Shown: one piece after another, positions 125-48,521 of the stretch
Layout: every line of letters begins with the position of its first letter
How positions within the stretch are numbered: the first letter of the stretch is position 1
Source of the DNA: Chitinophagales bacterium
Lineage (GTDB): Bacteria > Bacteroidota > Bacteroidia > Chitinophagales > Chitinophagaceae
DNA: 64,000 nucleotides
Direction of reading: 5' to 3'
Assembly: GCA_031425315.1 (NCBI GenBank)
Contig: JANPJC010000283.1
Coordinates: 10,108-74,107 of the forward strand
Translations under genes and position numbers: made by a program
The notes under the pieces: model-generated
The model's database searches: none
The model's input: the letters and a program-made list of their open reading frames with translations, nothing else
What the model was told of the DNA's origin: nothing

Positions 125-410
125 CCAGAAAACAGCAGTTGCGGATTGCGGGTTGCGGGTTGAAACAGCCAATACAGAGTTAGCGCCCTCATTGGTTTTT
201 TGAGATAAAGTTGACATCCGTTTAATCACGAATTAGTGTCAATTAACTTCCGCTCCAAATCAGCGTTATTGTTGTATTCACCAACATCAATTCAGGATTG
301 AAAAAATTTTGTACCTCCGTGGATCTCCTGTATTATTCTCCGTAAATCTCCGCGTCCTGCGGTTAAACCAGCTACGGCTGTTCCAACCTGCAACCCACAA
401 CCAGCATGTT
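125..410. repeat. complete small copy of the composite repeat element with inverted termini
   Basis: Plus head GCAGTTGCGGATTGCGGGTTGCGGGTTGAAACAGCCAATACAG (131-177). Internal CTCCGTGGATCTCCTGTATTATTCTCCGTAAATCTCCG. Minus head CGGCTGTTCCAACCTGCAACCCACAACCAGC (~370-405), which is the revcomp of GGTTGTG GGTTGCA GGTTGGAACAGCCG. Confidence 0.7.
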
Positions 411-2825: not shown

Positions 2826-3340
2826 TCAAACGTGATACTGTTTTCCCGAACCTTTCCGTCCTTTCCGACTTCCCGGCTATGTATTAGGTTAGGTGAATGA
2901 CATCAAGGGCTTTTTTTGCCGGTGAGGCGGGGAGAACGGAAACGAATACACGGGAATAGTTGCATACAAAATTCCATCTTAATCATGTTTGAAATTTTCC
3001 CGAAACTTGCCGTTCTTTCCGTCTTCCCGGCTATGTGTTGTGAAATTGATACTGGATGATATTCAACCGCAGTAGAAGGTAAGCCGGAAAACGCGGGAAT
3101 GATGAACCGGAAATAGATAATTGCATTTATTTCCCGAACCTTGCCGTCCTTTTCGTTTTCCCGGCTATGTATAGTGAAATTGATACTGGATGATATTCAA
3201 CTGCTGTAGCCGGGAGCCGGAAAATGCGGGAATGAAGAAATGAAATTCGTTTATTGCTTGTATTTTTTCCCGAACCTTGCCGTCCTTTTCGTCTTCCCGG
3301 CTATGTATAGTGAAATTGATACTGGATGATGCATTTGAAA
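2826..3340. repeat. tandem array of about four ~133-bp units (TTCCCGAACCTTGCCGTCC...CTTCCCGGCTATGTATAGTGAAATTGATACTGGATGAT...)
   Basis: Direct repeats with CCCGGCTATGT at ~2868, 3027, 3160 and 3293. Each unit has an internal imperfect inverted repeat (TTCCCG...CCCGGCTA versus TAGCCGGGAGCCGGAAAA(T/C)GCGGGAA). Confidence 0.85.
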
Positions 3341-6387: not shown

Positions 6388-7842
6388 ATGAAAACTGCTA
6401 CCGAATACGACGCAATAGTCATTGGATCAGGGCCCAATGGCTTATCTGCGGCAATTGTTTTACAACAGCAGGGGCTTAATGTTTTATTGATTGAAGGCAG
6501 GGATACAATCGGCGGTGGATTGCGCACTGCAGAATTAACCCTTCCTGGTTTTAAACATGATATATGTTCAGCGATTCATCCGATGGCCCTGGCTTCTCCT
6601 TTTTTCGATAGTCTGAAATTAGAGGAGCATGGCCTTCAATACATTCATCCTGAGTTTGCATTGGCCCATCCTTTTACAGATGGTAGCGCTGCTGTGCTGA
6701 AGCAATCGATTACGGAAACTGCCAAACTGTTGGGAGAAGATGGCAAAACATATTTAAAACTACTTTCACCGCTAGTTAAACACTGGCCGTTGCTGATCCA
6801 TGATATGTTGGCACCGTTAAGATTCCCCTCCCACCCTTTTTTGTATGCTGGATTTGGTCTGAAAGCGTTACCATCTGCTTCATCCACAGTGAAAAAATTT
6901 GAAACATTACATGCCCGCGGATTATGGGCGGGTATCGCAGCGCATGCAATTCAGCCATTGACCAACATAACTACTTCGGCGATTGGGTTGGTTTTATCAG
7001 CAGCCGCACATGTAAAAGGCTGGCCATTACCAAAAGGTGGTTCACAGTCTATTGCAAATGCTTTGCATAGCGTATTTACACAAGCAGGTGGCAAAACGCA
7101 AACAGGCTGGTTTGTCAAATCGCTGAGCGAATTGCCATCTTCAAAAACAATTTTATTTGATGTCACACCAAAACAATTATTATCAGTAGCGGGACATAAA
7201 TTTTCAGCATTGTATAAACGACAATTGTCCAACTACCGATATGGGATGGGTGTTTTTAAAATTGACTGGGCGCTCGATGAACCCGCGCCTTTTACTGCTG
7301 TGCAATGTCGCTCCGCAGGTACGGTTCACCTGGGCAATAGTTTCGAAGAGATAGCAGCAGGCGAACTGGCGACTTCAAAGGGGAAAAATGTACCAAATCC
7401 ATTCACATTATTTACTCAACCGAGTATTTTCGATACCACCCGTGCACCCCAAGGGAAACATACAGCCTGGGCATATTGTCATGTTCCGAATGGTTCCACA
7501 CAGGAACACACTGAAATAATTGAACAACAGGTCGAACGTTTTGCACCGGGATTCAGGGAAAAAATTATTGGCCGACACACATTTAATACTGCACAACTCG
7601 AAGAATACAATCCAAATTATATCGGTGGCGATATTAATGGTGGTGTGATGGATATCGGTCAATTATTTACCCGGCCGGCATTGCGTTTCTCTCCATATAA
7701 AACATCAGCTAAAGGACTTTATATATGTTCCTCTTCAACTCCCCCGGGAGGAGGAGTACATGGTATGTGTGGTGTACATGCCGCCAAAAAAGTTTTAAAT
7801 GATATTTTCCATATCCATCCAAATTCACTGAAGAAATTCTAA
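6388..7842 (+). CDS. NAD(P)/FAD-dependent oxidoreductase, phytoene desaturase (CrtI)-like family
   Basis: N-terminal Rossmann motif YDAIVIGSGPNGLSAA. Length and overall composition match CrtI-like amine oxidase-fold proteins. Confidence 0.75.
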   Translation: MKTATEYDAIVIGSGPNGLSAAIVLQQQGLNVLLIEGRDTIGGGLRTAELTLPGFKHDICSAIHPMALASPFFDSLKLEEHGLQYIHPEFALAHPFTDGSAAVLKQSITETAKLLGEDGKTYLKLLSPLVKHWPLLIHDMLAPLRFPSHPFLYAGFGLKALPSASSTVKKFETLHARGLWAGIAAHAIQPLTNITTSAIGLVLSAAAHVKGWPLPKGGSQSIANALHSVFTQAGGKTQTGWFVKSLSELPSSKTILFDVTPKQLLSVAGHKFSALYKRQLSNYRYGMGVFKIDWALDEPAPFTAVQCRSAGTVHLGNSFEEIAAGELATSKGKNVPNPFTLFTQPSIFDTTRAPQGKHTAWAYCHVPNGSTQEHTEIIEQQVERFAPGFREKIIGRHTFNTAQLEEYNPNYIGGDINGGVMDIGQLFTRPALRFSPYKTSAKGLYICSSSTPPGGGVHGMCGVHAAKKVLNDIFHIHPNSLKKF

Positions 7843-14934: not shown

Positions 14935-15618
14935 ATGAATATGAAACATGTAATAGTGAGCGGCGCCACTGGGAACCTTGGACAGGCAGTCGTGCAAAAA
15001 TTTTTAACAGAAGGATTTGCTGTTAGTGGTACGGCCCGGTCCCCAAATAAAGAACAAAAACACTCACACAATAATTACAATTTATTTGATGTTGATCTTT
15101 CAGATGAAACTGCGGCAGAAGATGTTGTGAATTCAGTGATTAAAAAAAACGGACGCATTGACATTGCAGTATTAACTGCAGGTGGCTTTGCTATGGGAAG
15201 TTTAAAAGACAGCAAATCATCTGCAATATTACAGCAGTACAAATTGAATTTCGAAACAGCTTACCACCTGGCGCGTCCCATATTTATGCAGATGTTGAAA
15301 CAGGGTTATGGAAGAATATTTTTCATCGGTAGCATGGCCGGGCTCGATGCCTCAAAATCAAAAGGCATGACGGGTTACGGTTTATCAAAATCACTGGTGA
15401 TACGGCTTAGTGAATTGATCAATGAAGAAGCGCGGGGTACTGATATTGTTAGTTCGGTAGTGATACCAGGAACAATTGATACACCACAGAACAGGGCTGC
15501 CATGCCGGATGCGGACTTTTCTAAATGGGTGAATGCTGATGATATTGCAAACATTATTTACCTGCACACCACGCCGGAAATGAGTACGAATAGAGAGACG
15601 ATGATTAAGATTTATTGA
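14935..15618 (+). CDS. SDR family short-chain dehydrogenase/reductase
   Basis: N-terminal VSGATGNLG Rossmann motif. Catalytic Y-x3-K (YGLSK). Confidence 0.85.
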   Translation: MNMKHVIVSGATGNLGQAVVQKFLTEGFAVSGTARSPNKEQKHSHNNYNLFDVDLSDETAAEDVVNSVIKKNGRIDIAVLTAGGFAMGSLKDSKSSAILQQYKLNFETAYHLARPIFMQMLKQGYGRIFFIGSMAGLDASKSKGMTGYGLSKSLVIRLSELINEEARGTDIVSSVVIPGTIDTPQNRAAMPDADFSKWVNADDIANIIYLHTTPEMSTNRETMIKIY

Positions 15619-15619
15619 G

Positions 15620-16680
15620 GCACTATGCAATAGGCAATAGCGAACAGCCAATACAGATTTTAGGTATGACAAATACTTTCCATTTCAGTTGAATATTTTG
15701 TGATAGAGTTTCTCCGTGAATCTCCTGTATATCATCTCCTGCTGTTTCTCCGTGTAACAAAACTATTTTGGAGACAAAGTTAACGCCGGATTTCGAGTTG
15801 AACGAAGAAGGGCTGTTTCTCAGCTTACCTCATAACCTCCGTTAAACTCCGTGGCCGAAAAATATCATCATTTGGGATCAACAGATTTAAAAGCCTGGAC
15901 ACAATACAGGCTTTAGGTAAAACAACACTCCGGACATTCGGCTTTCATTTGGCCACAGAGATAAGCGGAGATTTTGAGTTGAACGGAGAGTCGTTGTATT
16001 GGCTGTTCCTCAGCTTACCTAATAACCTCCGTTAAACTCCGTGGCCGAAAAAATATCATCATTTGGGATCAGCAAATTTAAAAGCCTGGACACAATACAG
16101 GTTTTAGGTATAACAACACTCCGGACATTCGACTTTCATTTGGCCGCAGAGTTAAGCGGGGATTTTGAGTTGAACGGAGAGTCGCTGTATTGGCTGTTCC
16201 TCAGCTCACCTCAAAACCTCCGTTAAACTCCGTGGCCGAAAAAAGTATTTGGGTAAATAAATTCAAAAGTTCGGAAACAGAGGGCCACTAAGAAACAAAG
16301 GACACAAAGGAACAGCCAATACAGGTTTTATGTTTTAGGTATTAGGTTCGCCCAATACTTTCCATTTCAATTGAATATTTTGTGAAAGAGTTTCTCCGTG
16401 AATCTCCTGTATTTCATCTCCTGCTGTTTCTCCGTGTAACAAACCATTTTGGAGATACAGTTAAGCCTGGATTTCGAGTTGGACGAAGAAGGGCTGTTCC
16501 TCAGCTCACCTCAAAACCTCCGTTAAACTCCGTGGCCGAAAAAAGTATTTGGTTAAGTAAATTCAAAAGTTCGGAAACAGAGGGCCACTAAGAAACAAAG
16601 GACACAAAGGCACAGCCACTAGGGGTTTTATGTTTTATGTTTTAGTTAAATACATGGCTACCAATTATCCTATTGACTTA
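15620..16680. repeat. ~1-kb composite intergenic repeat locus (heptamer head + GAACAGCCAATACAG core + CTCCGTGAATCTCCTGTAT and CTCCGTTAAACTCCGTGGCC hairpin modules; internal duplications)
   Basis: Core at 15642-15656 and 16310-16325. Reverse cores at ~15999 and ~16185. About 190-bp direct duplicates at 15838-16025 and 16026-16212. 15660-15870 is repeated at 16330-16550. Confidence 0.85.
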
Positions 16681-25310: not shown

Positions 25311-25835
25311 AGTGCGAAATACGAAGTGAGAAGTACGAAGTAAACAGCCCCGGACAGGTGGTTATGTTATTGTTTAATAAGAGTGAATGGGTGAATAGGG
25401 CAATATGATAATCGACAGCCGACGATTTCAACTAAAACTTAATCCATCTTCTTATAACTTTTTTCGGGCCACGGGGATGAGCGGAGAGTTTGAGATAAGC
25501 GGAGAACAGCCAGTGCATCAATACTCTGTTTAATTCAAAACCACTGTTTATCTATGTCGCCAAAGAAAATTAAAATAATTGCAAAAGTAAATAGCCTGCA
25601 AATATTGTATACTTTAAATATTTACTTACAACTTTAAAAATGTAACAAAGAAATTCTGTTACACGGAGAAACAGCAGAAGATAAAAGGCAAGAGATTCAC
25701 GGAGATTTCCTCTTCAGATAACAACCAGACTAAATGAACAACATCTTTATTAAATGTATAATTTAAAAGGTATAACTGTATTGGCTGTTCCCTGCTTACT
25801 GCTCACTACTTACTATTCACTAATCATCATTATCT
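25311..25835. repeat. complete composite repeat element with inverted heptamer+core termini
   Basis: Plus-oriented head AGTGCGAAATACGAAGTGAGAAGTACGAAGTAAACAGCC at 25311. Minus-oriented head (revcomp TAGTGAATAGTAAGTAGTGAGCAGTAAGCAGGGAACAGCCAATACAG) at 25775-25822. Internal GGCCACGGGGATGAGCGGAGAGTTTGAGATAAGCGGAG and TGTTACACGGAGAAACAGCAG...GATTCACGGAGA modules. Confidence 0.8.
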
Positions 25836-29739: not shown

Positions 29740-29830
29740 TTGATGTGCAGAGATACGAAAAAAGTGGGAAGGGGGAAGGGGGAAGTGCGAAGTATGAAGT
29801 GCGAAGTAATTAACAGCAAAAGGCAGAAGT
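29740..29830. repeat. orphan heptamer-array head (GTGGGAA GGGGGAA GGGGGAA GTGCGAA GTATGAA GTGCGAA GTAATTA ACAGC)
   Basis: Tandem 7-mers ending in ACAGC, related to the heads of the repeat family. Lies 10 bp upstream of the GH5 start codon. Confidence 0.6.
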
Positions 29831-35023: not shown

Positions 35024-35480
35024 AATAGCAGACGGAAGACGGTAGACGGTAGGCAGTAGAGAACAGCCAATACAAAGACGGTAGACGGTAGACGGTAGGC
35101 AGTAGAGAACAGCCAATACAGGTTTTACGTTATAAGTTATATGTTTAACACGCCTGTTAGTCTTCGGCGATCAACTGTAGCGGCAAGGCATGCCTTGCCG
35201 CTACAAGAACAGCCAATACAGGTTTTACTTTATAAGTTATATGTTTAACACGCCTGTTAGTCTTCGGCGTACAACAGTAGCGGCAAGACATGCCTTGCCG
35301 CTACAAGAGCAGCCAATACTGGTTTTACGTTATAAGTTATATGTTTAACACGCCTGTGAGTCTTCGGAGTACAACAGTAGCGGCAAGGCATGCCTTGCCG
35401 CTACAAGAACAGCCAATACACACTGAAGTACTTGAATGATATCAAATCGTACTGTTGTATTAACGTAAAACGTAAAACTT
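35024..35480. repeat. repeat locus: two heptamer heads (GACGGTA)n + core, then three tandem ~121-bp units each carrying a perfect hairpin GTAGCGGCAAGGCATGCCTTGCCGCTAC
   Basis: AACAGCCAATACA at 35062, 35109, 35207, ~35327 and 35407. Unit = core + TTTTACGTTATAAGTTATATGTTTAACACGCCTGTTAGTCTTCGGCG + hairpin. Confidence 0.85.
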
Positions 35481-38899: not shown

Positions 38900-39676
38900 T
38901 TCCTTTAATCGATGCATGCTTAGTCTGTACGTTATTTCAATAATTCCATTAATCCTGTCAGCACTTCAGTTTCAAAACCAGGATAAATCGCAAGACTTTG
39001 ATCCCACAAATCAGTATTATTCAATACCAATTTTACGATCTCATCAATATTATGGTTTTACCACAATTCAAAATAGTATTCGGCAGACGCCTCTACAATG
39101 GGATAACAGTTACCTTTTAATTCGCCGAAATACTTCCCATCTTTTTTTTGAACCACACACATGAACTTCAAGTAGCCGCCGAATCCGCACGCAATCAGAT
39201 CAGGTACAGTATTAAAACCTCCAAAATTTTTTGCAATGCACAGAACGACACGCATTTTCATTTAGCCAGCTCATCAAAACTCAATCCTTCTCCATGTAAT
39301 AGTGAATATGAAAGAACTTTTAATACTTCCACCATGTCCCGAGACTGATGTACACCACAAACTTTCATTTGTATGCAACAATTAGACTTACCGTTTCTGC
39401 AGGCAACACATTTACCACCGTTGAAATAAGGAATAAATGTGACCGCTTCCCACGCACAAATCCCGGCGTATCGCCTTCATCGAAAGTTGCAGACAGTTCA
39501 TGGCCAAAAATCCGAGGGTATTCGAAAAACGGTTGTGTACCTTTAAAAGCGTGCAAATCAGTGCCACATATGCCGATGCGTTTAATTTCAATGAGTGAAT
39601 AACCATCTTGAAAAACTGGCAGATCAGCTTCTATATATTCAAAACTGCCTGGAGCATTACAATCTAAGATTCTCAT
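38900..39676 (-). pseudogene. decayed Zn-dependent alcohol/polyol dehydrogenase
   Basis: 103-aa N-terminal fragment with GroES-like ADH motifs (GICGTDLHAFKG, FGHELS) then loss of frame. Downstream 39058-39261 fragment continues in another frame. Confidence 0.5.
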
Positions 39677-39856: not shown

Positions 39857-41143
39857 TCAATGCCTTATTCCCGTATTGGAAGTTGCAAGGTTTCGATTAT
39901 CCCCCGATACCTTGTATCCTTTCCATCCAAAAAAGAAGATCACGATGAAACAAAACATAGGGATGAAATATCCATTCTGAATATTTCCGGTATAATCGCT
40001 GACATATCCAAAAATCCAGGGGATAACGGCACCACCAACAATTGACATAATAATCAAACTGCTGCCGAACTCTGTATCGCGGCCAAGTTTGTTGATACCT
40101 AATGCAAATATGGTGGGAAACATTATCGACATAAAAAAGCAGATTCCAATCACTGCGTAAATGGTATACATGCCATGAGCGAAAACCACACTACAACATA
40201 ATACTACGTTGATAGCCGCATACAATGCGAGTAAAGTTGGAGGTTTAATATATTTCATTAAAAAAGTTCCAAGGAAACGACCAATCAAAAACGCGATCCC
40301 ACAAGCACCTAAATAATCTGCTGCCATTACCTGCGTTATTGCAGCTGCATCCACTGCAAATAATATGAACAGGCTGAAAACTGAAACCTGTGCGCCAACA
40401 TAAAAAAACTGCGCCGCTACTGCCCACGAAAGATGTTTATGCCGAAGTGCATGAAAAATGTTTGCACCTTTTTCAGCCCCACCTTCAGTTTGCTGTATTG
40501 CCGGCAACTTGATAAATGCAAATACAATTGCAATCAACACCAAAACGATACCCAATACCAGATAAGGCATCTTAACAGATGATGCTTCTGAAGCCAGGGC
40601 AAATTGTTTCGCGGTATCAGTCATTTGAGCGAGCTCTTCGTCTGACGTACCTTTAGTAAGAATAATCCTTGCACCAATTACTGGAGCAAGTGCTGCAGCC
40701 AACCCGTTAAATGACTGCGCAAGATTGAGCCGCTGCGTAGAGGTTTCAGGGCTTCCCAATGAAGCGGCGTATGGATTTGCAGCTGTTTCAAGAATAGTGA
40801 GTCCACACGCTATAATAAACAGGGCAATTAAAAAAAATGAATACGACTGCTGATCTGCAGCAGGTAAAAATAAAAAACATCCGATGGCGAAAATCAGCAG
40901 GCCAATAATAATTCCAATCTTATAGCTGAACTTTTTCATGATATATCCTGCCGGTAGTGCCATTATAAAATACGCAATGAAAACAGCTGAATCAACCAGG
41001 GTCGACTGAGTAGTGGTTAATGTAAACGACTTTTTGAGGTGAGGGATTAAAATGGGGTCCAGGTTATGCGCAAAGCCCCAAAGAAAAAAAAGTGAAGTAA
41101 TCAGTATAAAGGCAAATCTATAATTGGATGTTGAAACTGGCAT
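39857..41143 (-). CDS. MFS sugar:H+ symporter, FucP (fucose/glucose/galactose permease) family
   Basis: 12-TM MFS. N-terminal LFFLWGFAHNLDPILIPHLKKSF is typical of FucP-family permeases. Confidence 0.8.
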   Translation of the reverse strand: MPVSTSNYRFAFILITSLFFLWGFAHNLDPILIPHLKKSFTLTTTQSTLVDSAVFIAYFIMALPAGYIMKKFSYKIGIIIGLLIFAIGCFLFLPAADQQSYSFFLIALFIIACGLTILETAANPYAASLGSPETSTQRLNLAQSFNGLAAALAPVIGARIILTKGTSDEELAQMTDTAKQFALASEASSVKMPYLVLGIVLVLIAIVFAFIKLPAIQQTEGGAEKGANIFHALRHKHLSWAVAAQFFYVGAQVSVFSLFILFAVDAAAITQVMAADYLGACGIAFLIGRFLGTFLMKYIKPPTLLALYAAINVVLCCSVVFAHGMYTIYAVIGICFFMSIMFPTIFALGINKLGRDTEFGSSLIIMSIVGGAVIPWIFGYVSDYTGNIQNGYFIPMFCFIVIFFFGWKGYKVSGDNRNLATSNTGIRH

Positions 41144-41502
41144 GCTGTTTTACTTTTCGTTGAATGCTGAAATTTAATCAATCGGATTACTACATCCTGA
41201 CATTTCTGCTTTTGAATGTGTATCCTGTTTACGCCTTAAAGATTGCGATTTAAATTGAAATTTTGAATGAATGGCCATTCCAATTCAACAACATTTCAAA
41301 AAAAATCAATTTTCATTGATAAACTGAAAGGGGGAATATGCAACATGCAGGTAATTAATATGCATCAGCTCAACCCCTTCATTTATGTTTACGGATCATC
41401 GTTCCCAGCAGTAAACCTACAGCGAAGCAAGTAAAATCAGTACCTTTATTAACTCAATATATTGTACTATATTAACATAGTAAATTTAAAACGATGTACA
41501 AA

Positions 41503-42350
41503 TGAGACCGGTTCTCCGCCAGGTTACTTCCAAACCGGAATATTCCTTTACTGTTAGAAAAGACGAAGGGGAGAACACGCTTAACAACTGGCACTATCAT
41601 CCGGAGATTGAAATACTCAATAAAAAAGAAGTGTGGGCAACTGGCTGATTGGAGATCATATCGGTCATTTTACAAGTAGAGATATAGTAATGATCGGCCC
41701 AAATCTTCCCCATTGTTTCCGGCTTGAATATGATTATATCATCAAAAAGAAGAGAAAGCCGGAGAATCCTTTTTTGTGTGAAGTTTTTACCTGAAACATA
41801 GGTCATGTTTTTCTTAGCCTGCCTGAAAACAAATCGATAAGGGAACTCAAGACGAAATGTGTAAGGGTGCTGCAAACTAAAGGAAAAGTGAAAAATGAGA
41901 TTGGTACCCTCTTTGAAAAAATGGCATCATGCTTTCCAGCCAAAAGGATCACTTACCTGCTTTCGGTTTTCGCTGACATAGCAGATAGCCGGGAATTTCA
42001 GTCACTTTTTTCTCCGGGATTTATTTTAACGACAGCTGATACTGACAAAGAAAGAATCAGATTAATTTTTGAATATTCAATCACCCGTTATGCAGAAAGA
42101 ATTACAATCGAAGAACTTGCTACTCTGTTCAGCATGATGCGACAATCTTTTATCAGGTATTTTAAAAGAAAAACCAATAAAACTTACGTCCGGTTTTTAA
42201 TGGAAGTGAATTGAACGTGCATGTAAATTATTGTTTGAAATGAAAAAACGTTGCTGAAATCAGCTATGCATGCGGTTATAATAATATCTCACATTTCAAT
42301 CATCAATTTAAAAATATTACTGGGAAAAAACATTGAAATAAAAGAGGGAT
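41503..42350 (+). pseudogene. AraC-family transcriptional regulator disrupted by multiple stops/frameshifts
   Basis: Frame 1 gives MRPVLRQVTSKPEYSFTVRKDEGENTLNNWHYHPEIEILNKKEVWATG* (AraC cupin). A second frame gives GDHIGHFTSRDIVMIGPNLPHCF. ORF 41867-42214 carries the AraC HTH start (ITIEELATLFSMMRQSFIRYFKRKTNKTYVRF), followed after a stop by the second HTH helix region. Confidence 0.6.
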
Positions 42351-43280
42351 TATATTAGTGAGCAGTAAGCAGTAAGTAGTGAGCAGTAAGCAGTGAGCAG
42401 TAAGTAGTGAGCAGTGAGCAGTAAGCAGTGAGCAGCCGATGGCTGTTATTTCTCCGTTAAACTCAAATGCTCCGTTCAACTCCGTGGCCAAAAAAAATTT
42501 ACTAACAAGAAAGTTTTAGTTTTCTAATGCACGCCACAGAGATAAGCTGAGGTTTTGAGATAAGCGGAGAAAAAATGGCGGTACAAATTATGGCAAATAT
42601 GATTGCTTAATAGAATTATTAGTTGCTAACCTCCGTTAATCTCAATTGCTCCGTTCAACTCCGTGGCCCAAAAAATCTACCATCAAGAAAATTTAAGTTT
42701 TCTAAGGCAAGCCACAGAGATAAGCTGAGGTTTTGAGATAAGCGGAGAAAAAAAGGCAATTCATTTTAGGACTAATATGAAAGCTTGATAGATTTGTTTA
42801 CTGTTATGCTCCGTTAAACTCAAATGCTCCGTTCAACTCCGTGGCCAAAAAATCTAACATCCAGAAAATTTAAGTTTTCTAAGGCAAGCCACAGAGATAA
42901 GCAGCGGTTTTGAGAGGAACGGAGAAAAAATGGCGATATAAATTATGGCAAATATGATTGCTTAATAGAATTATTCGTTGTTATCCTCCGTTAATCTCAA
43001 TTGCTCCGCTCAACTCCGTGGCCCAAAAAATCTACTATCACGAAAATTTAAGTTTTCTAATGCAGGCTACTGCTGTATTGGTTACAATTCTCTTGTGCCC
43101 AAGTGTTTTTTGCTACACGGAGGAACAGCCGGAGCTTAAATACAGGAGATTCACGGAGATAACTCAAGAATATTATATAGCCCGTTATCAGCTACTGTCT
43201 ACCTTCTACCAACTTTTGTATCGTCTGTTGCCTACTTTCTGTTTTCTACCGTCTACCTACTCTTGTATTGGCTGCTAACG
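42351..43280. repeat. complete composite repeat element: plus head (AGTGAGC/AGTAAGC)x13, four tandem ~175-185-bp hairpin units, minus head (GGTAGAC-type heptamers + core)
   Basis: Units start at ~42454, 42640, 42812 and 42985 with CTCCGTTAA(A/T)CTCAA(A/T)TGCTCCGTTCAACTCCGTGGCC paired to GCCACAGAGATAAGCTGAGGTTTTGAGATAAGCGGAG. CTCCGTGAATCTCCTGTAT module (reverse) at ~43110-43150. Reverse core CTTGTATTGGCTGC at 43262-43275. Confidence 0.85.
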
Positions 43281-43753
43281 TAAAACTGAATTGGCTCATC
43301 GAATACCCGGGCAGTTGAATCGAAATTGGGATACCTAGCCATAGGCATCAGCTGCCCTTCACAAAACAACTGATCCATTTTTAATCCTTTGCCAATCAGA
43401 GCCTGCTTTACATGGTCTTTGAAATTTTTCCCCTGAACTGCCAATGGAATCGCTCCGGAAATAATAACATTTTCATTCTTATATGCGCTAATTGCTAATT
43501 TCCGGCCGTCCAAATCCGCAGGAGCTATTTGTACAGTTTTGATTAACGGATAATTTCCCTCCCGAAAAAAAATAACCGCTGAATCACTTTTTACGCCAGC
43601 TACTTTTTGTAGGGCAGCCTCTAAAGTTTTCAGCGGTTTGCTGATAGTACCTGCGGCATTATCATTTCCACTTTCGGCCACAAATATGGTTTGTGAAAAA
43701 CAAATCATCACAGGCTGAAAAACGCAGAGGATCAATATTTTAATGAAATTCAT
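43253..43753 (-). CDS. N-terminal fragment of a right-handed beta-helix (pectate-lyase-like) secreted protein; C-terminus and stop provided by the repeat element
   Basis: Signal peptide + AESGNDNAAGTISKPLKTLEAALQK beta-helix N-cap, but only 166 aa. The last residues SSQYKSR* are encoded by the revcomp of the repeat core GCAGCCAATACAAGAGTAGGTAG. Confidence 0.5.
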   Translation of the reverse strand: MNFIKILILCVFQPVMICFSQTIFVAESGNDNAAGTISKPLKTLEAALQKVAGVKSDSAVIFFREGNYPLIKTVQIAPADLDGRKLAISAYKNENVIISGAIPLAVQGKNFKDHVKQALIGKGLKMDQLFCEGQLMPMARYPNFDSTARVFDEPIQFYVSSQYKSR

Positions 43754-43815
43754 TTTAACGTATTCTATTGCTTAAAAAGCAATGAATATAGTAAATGAAG
43801 TGATTAAAAATTCCG

Positions 43816-45255
43816 CTATTCCATCCTGTTCTTTTTGCTCCAGCTTTTATGCTTGGCTCCATCCATTTTTACAATCTTTGGTGTAAACCGTCCAACCACA
43901 TCTACTAATACCTGCTGACTTTTCATTACTGATTCAATATCCTTGTAAGCGAAAGGCGATTCATCCAACCCTCCTCCCATCAATTTCACTCCATGCATTG
44001 CCAGGATATCTTTCATCGCTTTTTCAGTAATTGACTGCAATGCCGCAGTTCTGCTCATTTTGCGCCCTGCACCATGTGAGGCTGATGATAGGGAAGACGG
44101 TTCTCCTTTTCCTTTTACAATAAAACCATCAGCCGTCATAGACCCAGGAATAATCCCTAAAACATTTTTTTCCGCAGGTGTCGCGCCCTTTCTGTGCACT
44201 ATCACTTCCCTGCCTTCAAACATTTCTTTCCAGGCAAAATTGTGATGGTTTTCCACCCGCACGATGGGTTGTTCTCCAAGCTGCAGAGCAATTTTATCAT
44301 GAATGATATGATGACATGCCGATGCATAGTCGCCTGCAAGTTTCATTGCAATCCAGTACTGTGCGCCTTCTTCTTCATCCAGGTTCAGCCATGCAAGGTT
44401 GGCAGCCTCGGATGGTAATCGCCTTTTTTCTTTTGCGATCTTAGTAAAATGATTGGCGATTGTTGCACCTAATCCACGTGAACCTGAATGCGACAACAAG
44501 CCCATATATTCACCAACAGGCAGTCCCAAAACATCATCCTGTTCTTTAATGTCTACGACACCAAATTCAACGAAATGATTTCCGGAGCCGGAGCTTCCTA
44601 ACTGCCGCCAAGCTTTATCCTGCAGTCCTTTGAGTAAAGGCACATCATTAAAAGCCGGATCTGTCAACACATCATGATCAGCAGGTTTCACAAATTGTGA
44701 ACCGTTTCCAAACAATGTGGCTTCATTCAGTTCACGAACAAAATACTGCTCACGCTTTTGCAATTCGCCTGGAGAAAGACTGAATACACTTAAACACATA
44801 CGGCATCCAATATCCACTCCCACGCCATATGGTATCACAGCATTTTCAGTAGCCAGCACCCCGCCGATTGGTAAACCATAACCGCTATGGGCATCCGGCA
44901 TTAATGCACCAGCCACCGCAACAGGTATTTTAGAAGCAGTTTGCATTTGCATTAAGGCCCCTTCCTCAATATGTTCAGCTCCAAATATCGAAAACGAAAT
45001 TCCCTGCTGATTTAAATCAATTGTTTCCCATGACGTTGGAGGTGGCGGCATAAAATAGTGAGCAATCAGTTGCAGCTTTTCATATTCCATATACTCAGAA
45101 GGTGCAGCCTGTATACGTTTCAGCAATTCAAGAACTTCTTCTTTATTGCTATGTTTAAACTGCTGCTGCATCACCTGCATGGCCACACTAATAACGGGCC
45201 CTTCAGGATATCCTATTGCCCGCAATTCTTTCCCGCTTAATTTTAATTTTGACAT
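43816..45255 (-). CDS. rtcB: RNA-splicing ligase RtcB
   Basis: 479 aa. Metal-binding and GAGR-type motifs (SASHGAGRKMS), HNFAWKE, NHAGVD-like core. Confidence 0.9.
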   Translation of the reverse strand: MSKLKLSGKELRAIGYPEGPVISVAMQVMQQQFKHSNKEEVLELLKRIQAAPSEYMEYEKLQLIAHYFMPPPPTSWETIDLNQQGISFSIFGAEHIEEGALMQMQTASKIPVAVAGALMPDAHSGYGLPIGGVLATENAVIPYGVGVDIGCRMCLSVFSLSPGELQKREQYFVRELNEATLFGNGSQFVKPADHDVLTDPAFNDVPLLKGLQDKAWRQLGSSGSGNHFVEFGVVDIKEQDDVLGLPVGEYMGLLSHSGSRGLGATIANHFTKIAKEKRRLPSEAANLAWLNLDEEEGAQYWIAMKLAGDYASACHHIIHDKIALQLGEQPIVRVENHHNFAWKEMFEGREVIVHRKGATPAEKNVLGIIPGSMTADGFIVKGKGEPSSLSSASHGAGRKMSRTAALQSITEKAMKDILAMHGVKLMGGGLDESPFAYKDIESVMKSQQVLVDVVGRFTPKIVKMDGAKHKSWSKKNRME

Positions 45256-45601
45256 CTTTCTTTTTTTTGCGCAATAACTTCAGAGCAATAATTATTCCTT
45301 TCATTATACCTCTTTTGTTATCGCAATTCATTTAAGCAATTCAATTAATAGATAAAATTTCTATGTCCGTGATTCAATGTCTTTGAAATAAGTATAATCC
45401 ACCTACTCAGCGGTGCTTTTTTGAACCACATAGACACATAATTAAATACAAAAGAATTTTCTATGTGCCCTCTATGCCTATGTGGCGGATGTTCCCTTGG
45501 GAGACTAATCTGCAAAAACAGTAAGTCTTGATTCGATCCGTTCCTTATTTCAACGACATTGATCCATGATTCACAAAACTTTAATTTTCAATTTTACACA
45601 T

Positions 45602-46702
45602 CTACTTTGCCGGCACAAACATTTGCTTCAACTGATCTGCCAACGCGCTGCTGCCATTGACGCTGATACTACTAATTTTTTCTGCGATCTTTTCCACGTA
45701 TTCCATCTCTTTCAATTTCCACAACATCGCATTTTCTTCCATCAGTTTTGCAGTATTCATCAAACTCCTGGTGCTGGCGGTCTCTTCCCTTCTCATGATA
45801 GTGTTAGCCTGCGCCTGCTTTTCAGCCACCATCACCCTGTTCATAATTTCCTTGATGTCACCTGGCAAAATGATATCCCTGATACCAAATGCAAAAACAG
45901 TCACGCCCAATTTCTCTGCCTGATCCTTTATTTTCTCAATCATAAATGCAGAAAGGGAATCTTTTTTCTCCAGCAATTCATCAAAACTATATCCAGCCAC
46001 AAATTCCCTTAATACCAGTTGCAGGCCAATATACAATTGCTTTTCAAATTCTTTATTCTGCAATAAAGCCTTTTCCACATCGGTTACAGCATACTGCGCC
46101 CACGCATTTAATCTCAAAGCAGCTTTGTCCCTGGTTAAAATTTCCTGCCCAGTTATTTCAAGCTGTAATTGCCTTGCATCAACTTTGTTTACCAAAATCG
46201 GTATGGCATTTTTCCACCAGCAATAAACGCCGCTTTCCAATATTCTGCTGAATTTCCCATCAACAAGTAATACCGCTTTTTCATAACTCTCTACTGCGTA
46301 TACCCGTACAAAAGGTGCAAGCACTTTATTCATCAGTATACTTCTGTCTGTTATCTCAGTAATTTCTGTTTTACTGATATCTACATATACAAATTCATAT
46401 TGCACCACAGATTTCCAGAAGCAATATCTGCCCGCGACCAATATCTCTTTCAACAATCCATTCACAAACAGTAATACCAGCTGGTTATCCTTCACTTCCA
46501 CTACCTGGAACTTAGCGGACAGCTGACTGTCACTTAAAAGAATATTTAACTCAACCGGTGGATTAAATGGTTCGGTCAGTTCAAATATTTTCACGGCTTT
46601 ATTACTCCTGATCCAGTATTTACCCGCAGTAAGAAACCTGCTGTAGGCGCCGTCTTTCAATAATAATCCAATCTGCCATTCATTGATAATAATCTTTCTC
46701 AT
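45602..46702 (-). CDS. slipin/SPFH (band-7) domain protein
   Basis: C-terminal SPFH-like region with coiled-coil (EKQAQANTIMRREETASTRSL). Confidence 0.65.
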   Translation of the reverse strand: MRKIIINEWQIGLLLKDGAYSRFLTAGKYWIRSNKAVKIFELTEPFNPPVELNILLSDSQLSAKFQVVEVKDNQLVLLFVNGLLKEILVAGRYCFWKSVVQYEFVYVDISKTEITEITDRSILMNKVLAPFVRVYAVESYEKAVLLVDGKFSRILESGVYCWWKNAIPILVNKVDARQLQLEITGQEILTRDKAALRLNAWAQYAVTDVEKALLQNKEFEKQLYIGLQLVLREFVAGYSFDELLEKKDSLSAFMIEKIKDQAEKLGVTVFAFGIRDIILPGDIKEIMNRVMVAEKQAQANTIMRREETASTRSLMNTAKLMEENAMLWKLKEMEYVEKIAEKISSISVNGSSALADQLKQMFVPAK

Positions 46703-47012
46703 ATCTGTTTGTTTTGGTTTTTTGTTATAAATGATTACTATAAGCCTTCAATTATCACGGGACATTACCTGTTTAAAAATTCGGTTACATCATTTCAACT
46801 TTCCCAAATGGCCGGGAAAACCAAAATCATTTAACATCCATCGTCAACATGGTGAGTCGCAGGTAAATCACTGAATGTAACCGGCAGCTTTTTTGCAAAC
46901 CACCATTACCGGCTTACAGTAACCATTTATGGATCGCCATTTGAGAAGTGGCGGACTTCGTTAGGTCTACAGCCTGAGTGTAGTGCTTTCGCCGCTAAGC
47001 TATTCCGCCATA

Positions 47013-47062
47013 AGCGGAAGCAGGAGTCGAACCTGCGTTTTGTTGCTCTACCATTAAGCTAC
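47013..47062 (-). other. tRNA-like remnant: D-arm-like GGTAGCTTAATGGTAGAGC + T-arm GCAGGTTCGACTCCTGC + TTCCGCT, but no anticodon arm
   Basis: Seen on the reverse complement. I could not fold a full cloverleaf (no matching 5' acceptor strand, only ~8 nt between D- and T-arms). Confidence 0.3.
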
Positions 47063-47065
47063 CGT

Positions 47066-47093
47066 TGTTACACGGGGAGGATTCGAACCTCCA
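47066..47093 (-). other. tRNA-like remnant: T-arm GGAGGTTCGAATCCTCC + 3' acceptor-like CCGTGTA
   Basis: Canonical T-stem/loop on the reverse strand, with no foldable upstream D/anticodon arms. Confidence 0.3.
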
Positions 47094-47384
47094 ACACACA
47101 TGCATAACCGATTCTTGCAATAGCATACAATTCGTTATTACGATTGCACTGTACTGGATACATCCAGCCACCCGGATTGCAAGTCATCTGGTTAAGACTA
47201 CTTCCCTTCCGGAAAGTCTCTTTCTGATATTTCTATCCAGTTAAATTATCTAAAGAACTCATTTTCAATTGATGATACAAAACTATCCGACCACTGTGCA
47301 ACCATTTTGCACAGTAAAAAGAAAAATGAATTATTTTTAAAAAAAGTTAGCATCAGAGGAAATCCGGGAGATTACAATTCAGTT

Positions 47385-48395
47385 ATGCCGATCAACAGAA
47401 ATGCACTCATTCGTTACAGAACAATTGACCGATGCCTGCAAAACAGGAGAAGAAAATGGTCGATAGAAGATTTGATGGATGCCTGTTCATCAAGTCTATA
47501 CGAAATTGATGGCGTCAATAAACCAATCAGTCTTCGCACCATCAGGCTCGACCTGAATATGATGCGGGGCGATAAACTGGGATACAATGCTCCCATCATC
47601 GTAAAAGAAAAAAAATATTATAGTTATGAGGACGCTGATTATTCCATTTCAAATATTCCATTAACCGGCAACGACCTTGATGTATTGAATGAAGTATCGC
47701 ATCTTCTGCAGCAATACAAAGGATTCAGCCATTTTCATGAAGTATCTGAAATCATCAGTAAGTTGGAAGACAAGATCTACAGTGAAAAAAATCATAATGT
47801 TTCATTGATTGATTTCGAAAAAAATGATTTGCTGGCAGGAATTGAATGGCTGGACATTTTATATAAAGCCACAGTTTCGAAAACTGCTATTCAGCTCTGT
47901 TATCAATCGTTTAAGGCCAGGGCTGCTACCGAAATTATAGTATACCCCTATCTCCTGAAAGAATACCGGAACAGGTGGTTTGTAGCGGCATCGAAGAAAA
48001 AGGAAAAGCATGTGAATATATTTGCGCTGGACAGGATTCAAAAAATAACGATTCTTCCATCAGAACCATTTTACCAAAACCCTGCCTTCGATCCCGCTAC
48101 ATGGTTTGCCGATATTATTGGTGTTACCAGAAATTCGGCCGAAAAACCAACAGAAATAAGGTTCCTGGCCAATCCCCTTCATGCACCCTATATTCAAACC
48201 AAACCTTTGCACCCCTCTCAGCAAATAATCGAAAAAACCAATCAAGGTATTGTATTCAGTATCTGCGTAATCCCCAATTTTGAATTGGAAAAAGAATTGC
48301 TGGGATTCGGCGAAGGAATAAAATTGTTATTCCCGGCGTACATGGTACGAAGAATTAATGGTAAAATTAAAAAAATGGCAAAGCTGTATATTTAA
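47385..48395 (+). CDS. WYL-domain HTH transcriptional regulator (start moved to MPINRNALIRYRTIDRCL)
   Basis: N-terminal wHTH signature, central WYL-like region, C-terminal WCX-like region. Confidence 0.65.
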   Translation: MPINRNALIRYRTIDRCLQNRRRKWSIEDLMDACSSSLYEIDGVNKPISLRTIRLDLNMMRGDKLGYNAPIIVKEKKYYSYEDADYSISNIPLTGNDLDVLNEVSHLLQQYKGFSHFHEVSEIISKLEDKIYSEKNHNVSLIDFEKNDLLAGIEWLDILYKATVSKTAIQLCYQSFKARAATEIIVYPYLLKEYRNRWFVAASKKKEKHVNIFALDRIQKITILPSEPFYQNPAFDPATWFADIIGVTRNSAEKPTEIRFLANPLHAPYIQTKPLHPSQQIIEKTNQGIVFSICVIPNFELEKELLGFGEGIKLLFPAYMVRRINGKIKKMAKLYI

Positions 48396-48521
48396 AAGTC
48401 AATAAACAACTTCCACAAAACAATTTCTGCTGCTGCAAACTCGATGTGTTTAAACATAATGATTAAAATCATATGTGTGCCCGATTAAAATCATCAGCCA
48501 CCCCTGCCCTTCCTTCTAATA

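What the first reader, a model, noticed from the sequence alone, without database searches (positions are those of the whole stretch)
43190..43330. Repeat element insertion truncated a beta-helix gene and now encodes its last seven residues and stop codon
ORF 43253..43753 (minus strand) has a signal peptide and a pectate-lyase-like beta-helix N-cap but stops after 166 aa, where such proteins are typically several hundred residues. Its C-terminal SSQYKSR* is translated from the reverse complement of the element core plus head (AGC AGC CAA TAC AAG AGT AGG TAG, read from GCAGCCAATACAAGAGTAGGTAGACGGTAG). This is direct evidence that the repeat family inserts into coding sequence and donates a new 3' end, consistent with mobility. 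The upstream AraC gene (41503-42350) at the other end of the same element is also a pseudogene.
Basis: partly seen in the sequence, partly recalled or inferred. Interest (0 to 1): 0.65.

Follow-up and report, generated by a model that had tools for sequence, protein, structure and literature searches.

The report
Repeat-capped stump of a decayed gene
A 166-residue ORF is the leftover first fifth of a ~780-residue secreted sugar-degrading enzyme; the rest of the gene and its neighbour were replaced by a block of the genome's own intergenic repeats, which now supply the ORF's last 14 residues and stop codon. This is ordinary gene decay, with a clear before-and-after comparison.

Summary
ORF 43253..43753(-) matches beta-helix proteins only up to residue 151/152 (…ARVF). 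Its last 14 residues, not 7 (EPIQFYVSSQYKSR*), are read from a repeat module: core'-GTTTTACGTTAG-core-first heptamers. That module recurs at 52607-52680.

The closest available relative (RtcB 85% identical; flanking orthologues 73-95%) has the same gene order, but with everything intact between AraC and RtcB: AraC (304 aa), a 499-aa fucosidase, a 781-aa beta-helix+PDZ protein, and five more sugar-utilisation genes.

In the window, about 3.6 kb has been replaced by about 945 bp of modular repeats. The lost stretch comprises the last 18 AraC codons, the whole fucosidase and about 630 beta-helix codons. No displaced remnant exists in the window. AraC, a Zn-ADH and a mannitol dehydrogenase are also pseudogenes.

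The event is therefore a replacement or deletion inside a decaying locus, not a simple insertion. The relative has no repeats at these positions, so the repeat copies are new here, which is consistent with mobility or copy-paste. Repeats that donate C-termini and stops are already known (for example Coxiella MITEs).

Interest is low to moderate. The repeat family itself (variable heptamer arrays plus a conserved GAACAGCCAATACA core) is the more interesting object.

The parts
43301..43753 (-). 5' remnant (codons 1-151) of a Pel9A-like beta-helix + PDZ protein gene. It keeps the start codon, a signal-peptide-like N-terminus and the N-terminal region only.
   Evidence: Homologue alignments end at residue 151-152. 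It is 47% identical to residues 3-152 of the relative's intact 781-aa protein. DNA similarity to the relative ends at TTC(F151). The precomputed Pfam hit is PF22842.
43253..43300 (-). Junction codon D152 (GAT, origin ambiguous), followed by the repeat-encoded tail EPIQFYVSSQYKSR and the TAG stop.
   Evidence: The tail does not align to any homologue. It does align to canonical repeat copies.
43287..43297 (-). Degenerate core' GAGCCAATTCA. With the preceding GAT it matches 11 of 14 bases of GAACAGCCAATACA. It is the first repeat module after the break.
   Evidence: Alignment A2. Counterpart: AAGCCAATACA at 52607.
43275..43286 (-). GTTTTACGTTAG linker, of the GTTTTAC-type heptamer family that normally follows the core.
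43264..43274 (-). Canonical core CAGCCAATACA.
   Evidence: 16 hits in the window against 1.3 expected.
43190..43263 (-). Degenerate heptamer array (AGAGTAG GTAGACG GTAGAAA … AGACAGT AG). Its first units supply K-S-R and the TAG stop.
   Evidence: Read directly from the sequence. Collinear with 52662-52690.
43106..43159 (-). D module TCTCCGTGAATCTCCTGTAT…CTCCGTGTAGCAAAAAA.
   Evidence: 6 hits in the window against 0.01 expected. Alignment of four core-to-D units.
42444..43064 (+). 178-bp palindromic (hairpin) unit in 3.5 tandem copies (the E modules).
   Evidence: TRF, repeat families D1/D3, and a fold z-score of -4.0 on one strand and -3.7 on the other.
42357..42435 (+). AGTGAGC/AGTAAGC heptamer array, 11.3 copies. 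It replaces the last 18 codons of AraC.
   Evidence: TRF. AraC DNA homology to the relative ends at GATTAT, 42348-42353.
41502..42353 (+). AraC-family regulator pseudogene: at least 4 frameshifts, one in-frame TGA, and a truncated 3' end.
   Evidence: The frameshifts are not a systematic homopolymer error: 31 A6/T6 runs lie in intact long ORFs.
38944..39676 (-). Remnants of mannitol dehydrogenase (38944-39261) and Zn-alcohol dehydrogenase (39264-39676, frameshifted). Both genes are intact in the relative.
   Evidence: tblastn with the relative's proteins. ADH_N hit for the 103-aa ORF.
43816..45255 (-). RtcB, intact. It is the syntenic anchor upstream of the remnant.
   Evidence: Pfam 5e-80. 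85% identical to the relative's RtcB.
52532..52777 (+). Paralogous composite repeat: array, core, E' half-unit, core, GTTTTAC linker, core-like sequence, array, D. From 52607 it is collinear with the junction element. It sits where the relative has a Usp gene.

Best explanation
ORF 43253..43753(-) is a dead-end stump. It is the first ~151 codons of a ~780-aa secreted right-handed beta-helix + PDZ protein. That protein belonged to a fucoside/hexuronate utilisation locus lying between UxuA and RtcB.

In the closest available relative the locus is intact, in this order: AraC, fucosidase-499, beta-helix-781, fucosidase-486, SusD, SusC, FecR, sigma-70, RtcB. In this genome the locus is decaying.

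About 3.6 kb has been replaced by ~945 bp of the genome's modular intergenic repeats. The lost stretch runs from 18 codons before the AraC stop, through the whole fucosidase-499 gene, to codon 152 of the beta-helix gene. The replacement consists of an AGTGAGC heptamer array, a 178-bp palindromic unit x3.5, a D module, a degenerate GTAGACG-type array and two GCCAAT(A/T)CA cores.

Translation of the stump runs from codon 152/153 into the repeat, in the order core', GTTTTACGTTAG, core, first heptamers. That adds EPIQFYVSSQYKSR and ends at a TAG inside the heptamer array. These arrays carry stop codons at a 7-nt period, so any frame closes quickly.

Shown: the truncation, the repeat origin of the tail, the synteny, the intact gene in the relative, the absence of repeats at those sites in the relative, and the two junction positions.

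Inferred:
- The repeat copies arrived at this site in this lineage, either by copying or transposition of core-bounded modules or by recombination between copies.
- They then amplified in tandem.
- The stump is non-functional.
For: - Homology stops at residue 151-152 in the great majority of the 150 best hits. Full-length relatives are 458-2495 aa.
- The closest homologue is really ~800 aa, split by a frameshift.
- The relative's locus is syntenic. Flanking orthologues are 73-95% identical, and an intact 781-aa beta-helix/PDZ gene and an intact 304-aa AraC sit in the same relative positions and orientations.
- The window holds no trace of the beta-helix C-terminal part, fucosidase-499, fucosidase-486, SusC/D, FecR or sigma-70.
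- The junctions are mapped at the DNA level.
- The tail matches the repeat family.
- The relative's AraC/fucosidase spacer (5 bp) and fucosidase/beta-helix spacer (116 bp) contain no such repeats.
- Within the syntenic block, D and E modules occur in the window only at the two sites where it lacks genes present in the relative. They occur nowhere in ~39 kb of the relative.
- Neighbouring pseudogenes show locus-wide decay.
- The junction is present in an independent assembly.
Against: - The stump is only 47% identical to the relative's N-terminus, although neighbouring orthologues are ~85% and the AraC pseudogene is 65-86%. It may therefore derive from a different allele or paralogue of the locus rather than the strict orthologue. 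However, this N-terminal region evolves fast in general: 52% between the relative and L162, against 71% for the rest of the protein.
- The 151 codons carry no frameshift or stop, whereas the AraC pseudogene has at least 5 lesions in 850 bp. Some residual constraint or a recent truncation cannot be excluded.
- Only one close relative was available, so the ancestral state rests on one genome plus the pseudogene polarity.
- The left half of the repeat block (42354-42945) is not covered by the independent assembly. An assembly collapse between identical repeats cannot be formally excluded.
Confidence: 0.8

Rival explanations
1. Simple insertion. A repeat element transposed into codon ~152 of an otherwise intact gene, and the downstream half of the gene is merely displaced.
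For: The junction coincides with a natural module boundary, the start of a core. Core-bounded modules follow many different upstream contexts. At 52550-52617 an E' half-unit is flanked by direct AGCCAATACA repeats, like a target duplication.
Against: tblastn with six full-length homologues, with the 650-aa C-part of the closest homologue and with the relative's 781-aa protein finds nothing beyond 43298 anywhere in the 64 kb. On the far side of the repeat block lies the truncated AraC 3' end, not beta-helix sequence.
Confidence: 0.05
2. Deletion first, repeats later. An illegitimate ~3.6-kb deletion fused the AraC and beta-helix stumps. Repeat modules then colonised or expanded at the scar. The repeat did not cause the truncation; it only supplies the present tail.
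For: The whole locus is decaying independently of the repeats, with frameshifts in AraC and ADH and a mannitol-dehydrogenase remnant. Heptamer arrays and tandem units clearly expand in place (x11.3, x3.5). Arrays at orthologous sites differ in sequence between the two genomes, so they turn over quickly.
Against: Both junctions fall exactly at module boundaries, an array start at AraC and a core start at the beta-helix gene. That is not expected if repeats entered a pre-formed scar at a single point. No residual non-repeat scar sequence lies between the two stumps.
Confidence: 0.3
3. Two repeat insertions followed by recombination between them, that is, a repeat-mediated deletion like IS/MITE-mediated deletions. 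It removed the intervening 3.6 kb and left a mosaic repeat block.
For: There are module boundaries at both junctions. The left side has the canonical gene-3' architecture, stop, array, CAGCC. The right side is collinear with the composite at 52607-52777. The same D-containing composite marks the other site where this genome lacks a gene of the relative, Usp.
Against: The two flanks of the block are not obviously the same element in direct orientation. No transposase or RAYT gene is present in the window. No target-site duplication can be defined.
Confidence: 0.4
4. The 166-aa protein is a natural short family member, or a functional neo-protein with a repeat-encoded tail.
For: The ORF is uninterrupted and keeps its start and a signal-peptide-like N-terminus. 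Many database hits are 140-220 aa.
Against: The short hits end at varying positions, consistent with contig-edge fragments. The best one is a frameshift split of an ~800-aa gene. The ORF lacks the Beta_helix repeats (265-366) and the PDZ domain (688-755) of the intact protein. No other protein in 5.8 billion clusters shares enough 5-residue words with it to be picked up and scored as a relative.
Confidence: 0.05
5. Assembly artefact: a chimeric join or a collapse at repeats in a draft or metagenome-assembled contig.
For: The region is repeat-rich, and the independent Logan contig breaks inside the 178-bp tandem at 42946.
Against: The CDS-to-repeat junction is 100% identical in the independent assembly. 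The longest exact repeat shared by the tail with anything else in the window is 20 nt, shorter than typical assembly k-mers. The AraC/beta-helix adjacency and orientation reproduce the relative's synteny, which a random chimera would not do.
Confidence: 0.05

Closest known systems
MITEs that overlap gene 3' ends and donate C-terminal residues and stop codons (Coxiella burnetii QMITE1/QMITE2; PMC5896051). Also the enterobacterial RU/ERIC-type small mobile sequences found intragenically (PMC2759123).
   Same: A multicopy, non-coding intergenic repeat abuts or enters a CDS, and the last residues and the stop are read from the repeat. In Coxiella, 33 C-terminal residues of EnhC come from QMITE2. 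The repeat shows presence/absence differences between related genomes.
   Different: Here the repeat does not extend or trim an otherwise complete gene. It caps a stump that has lost 80% of the gene together with a neighbouring gene. The module at the junction has no terminal inverted repeats and no significant fold (z = +1.4). No target duplication can be defined.
REP/BIME mosaic elements and REPINs mobilised by RAYT transposases (PMC3116915, PMC3337134).
   Same: They are modular mosaics of short repeats clustered just downstream of genes, often between convergent genes. They have palindromic units (the 178-bp unit), many copies per genome and tandem amplification.
   Different: The modules are flanked by arrays of tandem heptamers whose sequence differs from locus to locus, and between orthologous loci of two genomes, while a GAACAGCC(AATACA) core is conserved. 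No RAYT gene is in the window. The family is not in Rfam.
Heptanucleotide long simple-sequence repeats: Mrazek et al. 2007 as cited in PMC4679880, TAACTGA repeats (PMC4679880), and cyanobacterial STRR (from my own knowledge).
   Same: Tandem 7-nt units in intergenic DNA close to gene ends. Heptamers are the commonest long-SSR class in bacteria.
   Different: The arrays here start at stop codons and are followed by a conserved core. In metagenomic relatives they are paired with a complementary array to form long hairpins between convergent genes. TAACTGA repeats sit mostly upstream of start codons.
Repeat- or IS-mediated deletion and pseudogenisation of dispensable catabolic loci (general knowledge of bacterial reductive evolution).
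   Same: Several adjacent genes of one pathway are inactivated: frameshifted regulator, truncated enzyme, deleted fucosidase and SusC/D. Repeats sit at the deletion scar.
   Different: No autonomous IS is involved in the window. The filler is a mosaic of small non-coding modules.

Membership tests
Right-handed beta-helix (Pel9A-like) + PDZ secreted protein family (the gene itself) | Conserved N-terminal region (…GxDxNxGT…PxxTLxxA…MARYPN…) | tested here: met
   1444 HMMER hits, the best at 4e-38. Precomputed PF22842 hit. 47% identity to residues 3-152 of the relative's 781-aa protein.
Right-handed beta-helix (Pel9A-like) + PDZ secreted protein family (the gene itself) | Parallel beta-helix repeats (PF13229) and a C-terminal PDZ domain | tested here: not met
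   The relative has Beta_helix at 265-366 and PDZ at 688-755. The window ORF shows only a sub-threshold DUF1565 N-terminal match. No C-terminal coding remnant is present in the window. The ORF is therefore a fragment, not a family member with a complete fold.
MITE (miniature inverted-repeat transposable element) | Terminal inverted repeats or a hairpin-forming unit | tested here: inconclusive
   The 178-bp unit is a long imperfect palindrome (z = -4.0 and -3.7). The core-to-D composite that actually abuts the CDS is not (z = +1.4).
MITE (miniature inverted-repeat transposable element) | Target-site duplication flanking the insertion | tested here: not met
   The flanks are non-contiguous, AraC codon ~286 against beta-helix codon 152, so no duplication can be defined. 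The only suggestive case lies elsewhere: AGCCAATACA direct repeats around the E' half-unit at 52550-52617.
MITE (miniature inverted-repeat transposable element) | Multiple copies, and presence/absence between related genomes | tested here: met
   Core 16 hits against 1.3 expected. D module 6 against 0.01. D and E modules are absent from ~39 kb of the syntenic relative.
MITE / REPIN | A cognate transposase (IS parent or RAYT) in the genome | not testable with these tools
   No transposase or RAYT Pfam hit in the window ORFs of 100 aa or more that were scanned. The rest of the genome is not available.
REP/REPIN | A short (20-40 nt) conserved palindrome with a GTAG/CGTC head, occurring as inverted doublets | not tested
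   The arrays contain GTAG (GGTAGAC), but no REP-type consensus palindrome was sought systematically.
AraC/XylS regulators (the neighbouring gene) | An intact ORF with a C-terminal double HTH (PF12833) | tested here: not met
   HTH_18 reaches 7.7e-16 only after joining three frames. The last 18 codons are replaced by the heptamer array.
Heptanucleotide long simple-sequence repeats | Head-to-tail 7-nt units, at least 3 copies | tested here: met
   TRF finds 42357-42435 at x11.3 and several other arrays. About 16 arrays lie in 64 kb.

The most novel reading that the evidence does not exclude
The core-bounded modules are a variable heptamer array followed by a conserved GAACAGCCAATACA core, plus the D and palindromic E units. 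They may form an undescribed family of mobile or recombinogenic intergenic elements in Chitinophagaceae. These elements would normally dock exactly at stop codons and would actively drive gene replacement.

In ~32 kb that can be compared with a relative, the D/E-containing composites occur only at the two sites where this genome has lost genes. One site is the AraC-fucosidase-beta-helix scar and the other is the Usp site. Heptamer sequences differ at orthologous sites while the core stays the same, which hints at an active array-regenerating mechanism rather than passive slippage.
Probability: 0.25. Interest if true: 0.6.

Novelty: new member of a known kind. Interest (0 to 1): 0.3.

Why it matters
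The finding itself is a textbook example of gene decay, with a repeat-encoded C-terminus and stop. Its practical use is for annotation: the 166-aa 'protein' should be flagged as a pseudogene remnant, as should AraC, the Zn-ADH and the mannitol dehydrogenase.

Its wider value is as a dated before-and-after case for a repeat family that seems undescribed. The repeat copies are demonstrably new at this site compared with a syntenic relative, and they sit exactly at both deletion junctions. Heptamer-array/core elements flank many gene ends in this lineage and in several metagenomic Chitinophagaceae-like contigs. If they are mobile or recombinogenic, they would be a force shaping gene loss and 3'-end architecture in an abundant soil and water bacterial family.

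Tried and rejected
1. A word-index protein search with the ORF found only itself. With the AraC fragment it found nothing. Neither gave an orthologue.
2. RtcB synteny across 80 GTDB Chitinophagaceae loci (identity at most 73%): none has a beta-helix homologue near RtcB, and the core is nearly absent. These genomes are too distant to help.
3. An Rfam gathering scan of the whole window gave only a borderline tRNA-like hit at 46949-47009, which ARAGORN does not confirm. The repeats match no known RNA family.
4. The metagenome scan for ACAGCCAATACAGNTTTTA returned 80 loci. Most are chance or coding matches, and 6 are true family members.
5. I first favoured the idea that a deletion fused the CDS to a pre-existing 3'-flanking repeat of the beta-helix gene. 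I set it aside because the relative has no repeats at either the AraC/fucosidase or the fucosidase/beta-helix spacer.
6. An RNA fold of the tail plus the core-to-D composite shows no structure beyond shuffled controls, so the tail is not part of a terminator-like hairpin.
I got round this through the 90% cluster of UxuA.
8. The idea that the AraC frameshifts are sequencing errors at A6 runs was rejected. 31 A6/T6 runs lie in 18 kb of intact long ORFs, and there is also an in-frame TGA.
9. No transposase or RAYT was found in the window ORFs scanned.
Full report
**The observation**

ORF 43253..43753(-) exists and encodes 166 aa. Its N-terminus (MNFIKILILCVFQPVMICFSQT…) looks like a signal peptide. 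That is my reading of the sequence; no predictor was run. Pfam gives only a sub-threshold DUF1565 N-terminal match. The public collection records a PF22842 Pel9A-like_beta_helix hit for this exact protein. An independent Logan assembly of run SRR20217183 is 100% identical to window 42946-45438. So the junction between coding sequence and repeat is not peculiar to one assembly.

**Is the ORF truncated?**

A word-index search of 5.8 billion protein clusters returned only the protein itself. An exhaustive HMMER search of 1.84 billion representatives returned 1444 homologues. In the great majority of the best 150, the alignment stops at query residue ~151-152 (…MARYPNFDSTARVF). Full-length hits are 458-2495 aa and continue with NGTAADAIS…W.NPAGGY….

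The best hit, P0002, is 50% identical and looked like a natural 152-aa protein. It lies mid-contig and is followed by an overlapping 650-aa ORF with Beta_helix and PDZ hits. One extra T in a T-run right after ARVF splits a ~800-aa gene.

**Where does the tail come from?**

The last 45 nt plus the stop read GAG CCA ATT CAG TTT TAC GTT AGC AGC CAA TAC AAG AGT AGG TAG.

- The core CAGCCAATACA occurs 16 times in the window (at most 1 mismatch) against 1.3 expected.
- GTTTTACGTTAGCAGCCAATACA matches 52639-52661 with 2 mismatches, against 0 expected.
- Aligned with canonical copies, GAT GAGCCAATTCA G-TTTTACGTT lines up with GAACAGCCAATACAGGTTTTACGTT.

The repeat therefore begins at a second, degenerate core at 43287-43297. 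The whole stretch 43297 down to ~43100 is collinear with 52607-52777: core, GTTTTAC linker, core, degenerate array, D module.

**Is there a displaced remnant?**

No. I ran tblastn against the window with six full-length homologues, with the 650-aa C-part of the closest homologue and with the relative's 781-aa protein. All found only 43298-43753.

**The related genome**

GTDB representatives were too distant: RtcB at most 73% identical, with no beta-helix gene nearby. The protein collection, however, held an 85%-identical RtcB on a 6.47-Mb JGI contig, Ga0573891_0002. I fetched the locus around RtcB (L163). Through the 90% cluster of UxuA I also fetched the locus around UxuA (L165).

Flanking orthologues are 73-95% identical and collinear with the window from 28651 to 57470. 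Between UxuA and RtcB the two genomes compare as follows.

| Relative | Window |
|---|---|
| mannitol dehydrogenase | remnant, 38944-39261 |
| Zn-ADH | frameshifted remnant, 39264-39676 |
| (no counterpart) | intact MFS transporter, 39857-41143 |
| AraC, 304 aa, intact | frameshifted AraC, 41502-42353 |
| fucosidase, 499 aa | absent |
| beta-helix/PDZ protein, 781 aa | 151-codon stump |
| fucosidase, 486 aa | absent |
| SusD, SusC, FecR, sigma-70 | absent |
| RtcB | RtcB, 43816-45255 |

In the window, ~945 bp of repeats (42354-43297) lie between the AraC pseudogene and the stump. The relative's beta-helix protein has Beta_helix at 265-366 and PDZ at 688-755.

DNA alignments place the junctions as follows:

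- **AraC:** homology ends at GATTAT (42348-42353). The AGTGAGC array replaces the last 18 codons.
- **Beta-helix gene:** homology ends at TTC, codon 151 (43301).

In the relative's coordinates, about 3.6 kb is missing. The relative has only a 5-bp AraC/fucosidase spacer and a 116-bp fucosidase/beta-helix spacer, and neither contains these repeats.

**AraC**

The reading frame changes at least four times and there is one in-frame TGA. The frame-corrected protein hits HTH_18 at 7.7e-16. It matches the relative's AraC at 65-86% identity in three frames. Intact long ORFs contain 31 A6/T6 runs without frameshifts, so the lesions are not a systematic sequencing artefact.

**What the repeats are**

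They are modular.

- **Arrays and core.** Many genes in the window are followed, starting at or overlapping the stop codon, by an array of tandem heptamers and then by GAACAGCCAATACA and GTTTTAC-type heptamers. The heptamer sequence varies from locus to locus: AGTGAGC, AGACGGT, GTTGCGG, AAGTGCG and others.
- **E module.** A 178-bp palindromic unit, present x3.5 at 42444-43064, with a fold z-score of -4.0 and -3.7 on the two strands.
- **D module.** 6 hits in the window against 0.01 expected.
- **The composite at the junction.** The core-to-D composite that abuts the CDS has no fold beyond chance (z = +1.4).
- **Relatives in metagenomes.** A scan found six contigs with the architecture stop, (heptamer)n, AAACAGCCAATACAG[GT]TTTTA, small hairpin, complementary heptamer array, convergent gene.
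- **Orthologous sites.** The relative carries arrays plus GAACAGCC at orthologous sites, but with different heptamers. After DUF1003 it has GTGAGAA where the window has AGACGGT. After DUF481 it has GTGAATG where the window has AGACGGT.
- **Distribution in the syntenic block.** D and E modules occur in the window only at two sites: the AraC/beta-helix scar, and 52532-52777, where the relative has a Usp gene. They occur nowhere in the relative's ~39 kb.
- **Negatives.** No transposase or RAYT gene is in the window, and Rfam has no matching family.

**Interpretation**

The stump is the relic of a decaying sugar-utilisation locus. The polarity is clear for this site. The window carries frameshifted and truncated genes while the relative carries intact ones, so the repeat block is derived here. 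The family can therefore seed new copies at new sites.

It is not a simple insertion, however. 3.6 kb is gone, both convergent genes are cut, and both junctions coincide with module boundaries, an array start on one side and a core start on the other.

Three routes remain, and the present data cannot separate them:

- two insertions followed by recombination between them;
- deletion followed by colonisation of the scar;
- one-step copy-paste repair.

**Caveats**

- The stump is only 47% identical to the relative's N-terminus, so it may derive from a different allele of the locus. The N-terminal 152 aa is, however, the fast-evolving part of this protein: 52% between the relative and L162, against 71% for the rest.
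- The stump has no internal lesions.
- The left half of the repeat block is not covered by the independent assembly.
- Only one close relative was available.

**Comparison with what is known**

Repeats that overlap gene 3' ends and provide C-terminal residues and the stop are documented. Examples are Coxiella QMITE1/2, including 33 residues of EnhC (PMC5896051), and enterobacterial RU elements (PMC2759123). Mosaic intergenic repeats downstream of genes are known as REP/BIME/REPIN (PMC3116915). Heptamer long simple-sequence repeats are the commonest class in bacteria (PMC4679880). The finding is thus a new member of a known kind.

I found no description of the combination seen here, variable heptamer arrays with a conserved GAACAGCC(AATACA) core, in four literature searches. 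That combination is the more novel lead.

**Verdict**

- **Observation:** confirmed and extended.
- **Interpretation:** partly supported.
- **Interest:** 0.3.

Noticed in passing
window 138-176, 1340-1373, 15618-15655, 25783-25822, 29762-29815, 35030-35120, 42357-42440, 52520-52560; L163 5848-5964; L165 7344-7400: Heptamer arrays begin at, or overlap, the stop codons of many genes and are followed by (G)AACAGCC. For example, DUF1003 ends AAC AGA CGG TAG inside the array, and the 874-aa OMP ends AGT GAA TAG. At orthologous sites in the 85%-related genome the array is present, but with a different heptamer (AGACGGT vs GTGAGAA; AGACGGT vs GTGAATG), while GAACAGCC is conserved.
   Followed up: partly
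L091 4555-4790, L099 1-460, L116 (rc) 7590-7720, L118 (rc) 1120-1300, L148 and L158 (rc) 1-210: Metagenomic contigs carry the same conserved AAACAGCCAATACAG[GT]TTTTA preceded by long perfect heptamer arrays (GGGAGTC, CAGTAGC, GGTTGAC). It is followed by a small hairpin (AACAGCCAAAT…ATTTGGCTGTT) and by complementary GACTNNN arrays. Together these form long hairpins between convergent genes.
   Followed up: partly
window 52532-52777 versus L163 5020-5964: The relative has a 275-aa Usp gene between DUF1003 and PfkB. The window instead has a 245-bp composite repeat, collinear from 52607 with the one capping the beta-helix stump. Homology to the relative resumes at 52778, right at the position of the Usp stop. 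Whether this is a loss here or a gain there is unknown.
   Followed up: partly
window 52550-52617: A 46-bp E' half-unit (GCGAGTCTCCGTTTAACTCAAAACCTCCGCTTATCTCTGTGGCCAA) is flanked by direct CAGCCAATACA / AAGCCAATACA repeats. Removing it, with one repeat copy, restores the canonical GAACAGCCAATACAGTTTTACG. It looks like an insertion with a target duplication at the core.
   Followed up: no
window 38944-39676: Pseudogene remnants of mannitol dehydrogenase (42% identity over 106 aa) and Zn-alcohol dehydrogenase (60-69% identity, two frames). Both genes are intact in the relative. An intact MFS (FucP-like) transporter at 39857-41143 has no counterpart at this place in the relative.
   Followed up: partly
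window 35106-35420: A 100-bp unit in 3.2 tandem copies. Each copy starts with the GAACAGCCAATACA core and contains a perfect GC-rich hairpin, GTAGCGGCAAGGCATGCCTTGCCGCTAC. The relative's orthologous spacer is shorter and has different modules.
   Followed up: no
window 2995-3330 (and 2840-2960): A different 134-bp tandem repeat (x2.5, TTTTCCCGAACCTTGCCGTCC…) that is unrelated to the core family.
   Followed up: no
window 15811-16244 and 15645-16545: A 191-bp tandem (x2.3) of palindromic E-type units with an embedded reverse core, flanked by two core-to-D units. It is a second large mosaic cluster, between an SDR gene and a GH63-like gene.
   Followed up: no
window 45256-48521: A 3.2-kb segment that is absent from the relative, where ScdA and RtcB are 276 bp apart. 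It holds a Band_7/SPFH protein, a WYL/WCX regulator and a 61-nt tRNA-like Rfam hit at 46949-47009 (29.3 bits against a 29 cut-off). ARAGORN does not call that hit.
   Followed up: partly
L162 3170-3190: The closest homologue of the stump carries its own frameshift, an extra T in a T-run, at exactly the ARVF|N position where the window gene is broken. This is probably a coincidence or a low-coverage (2.9x) sequencing error.
   Followed up: no
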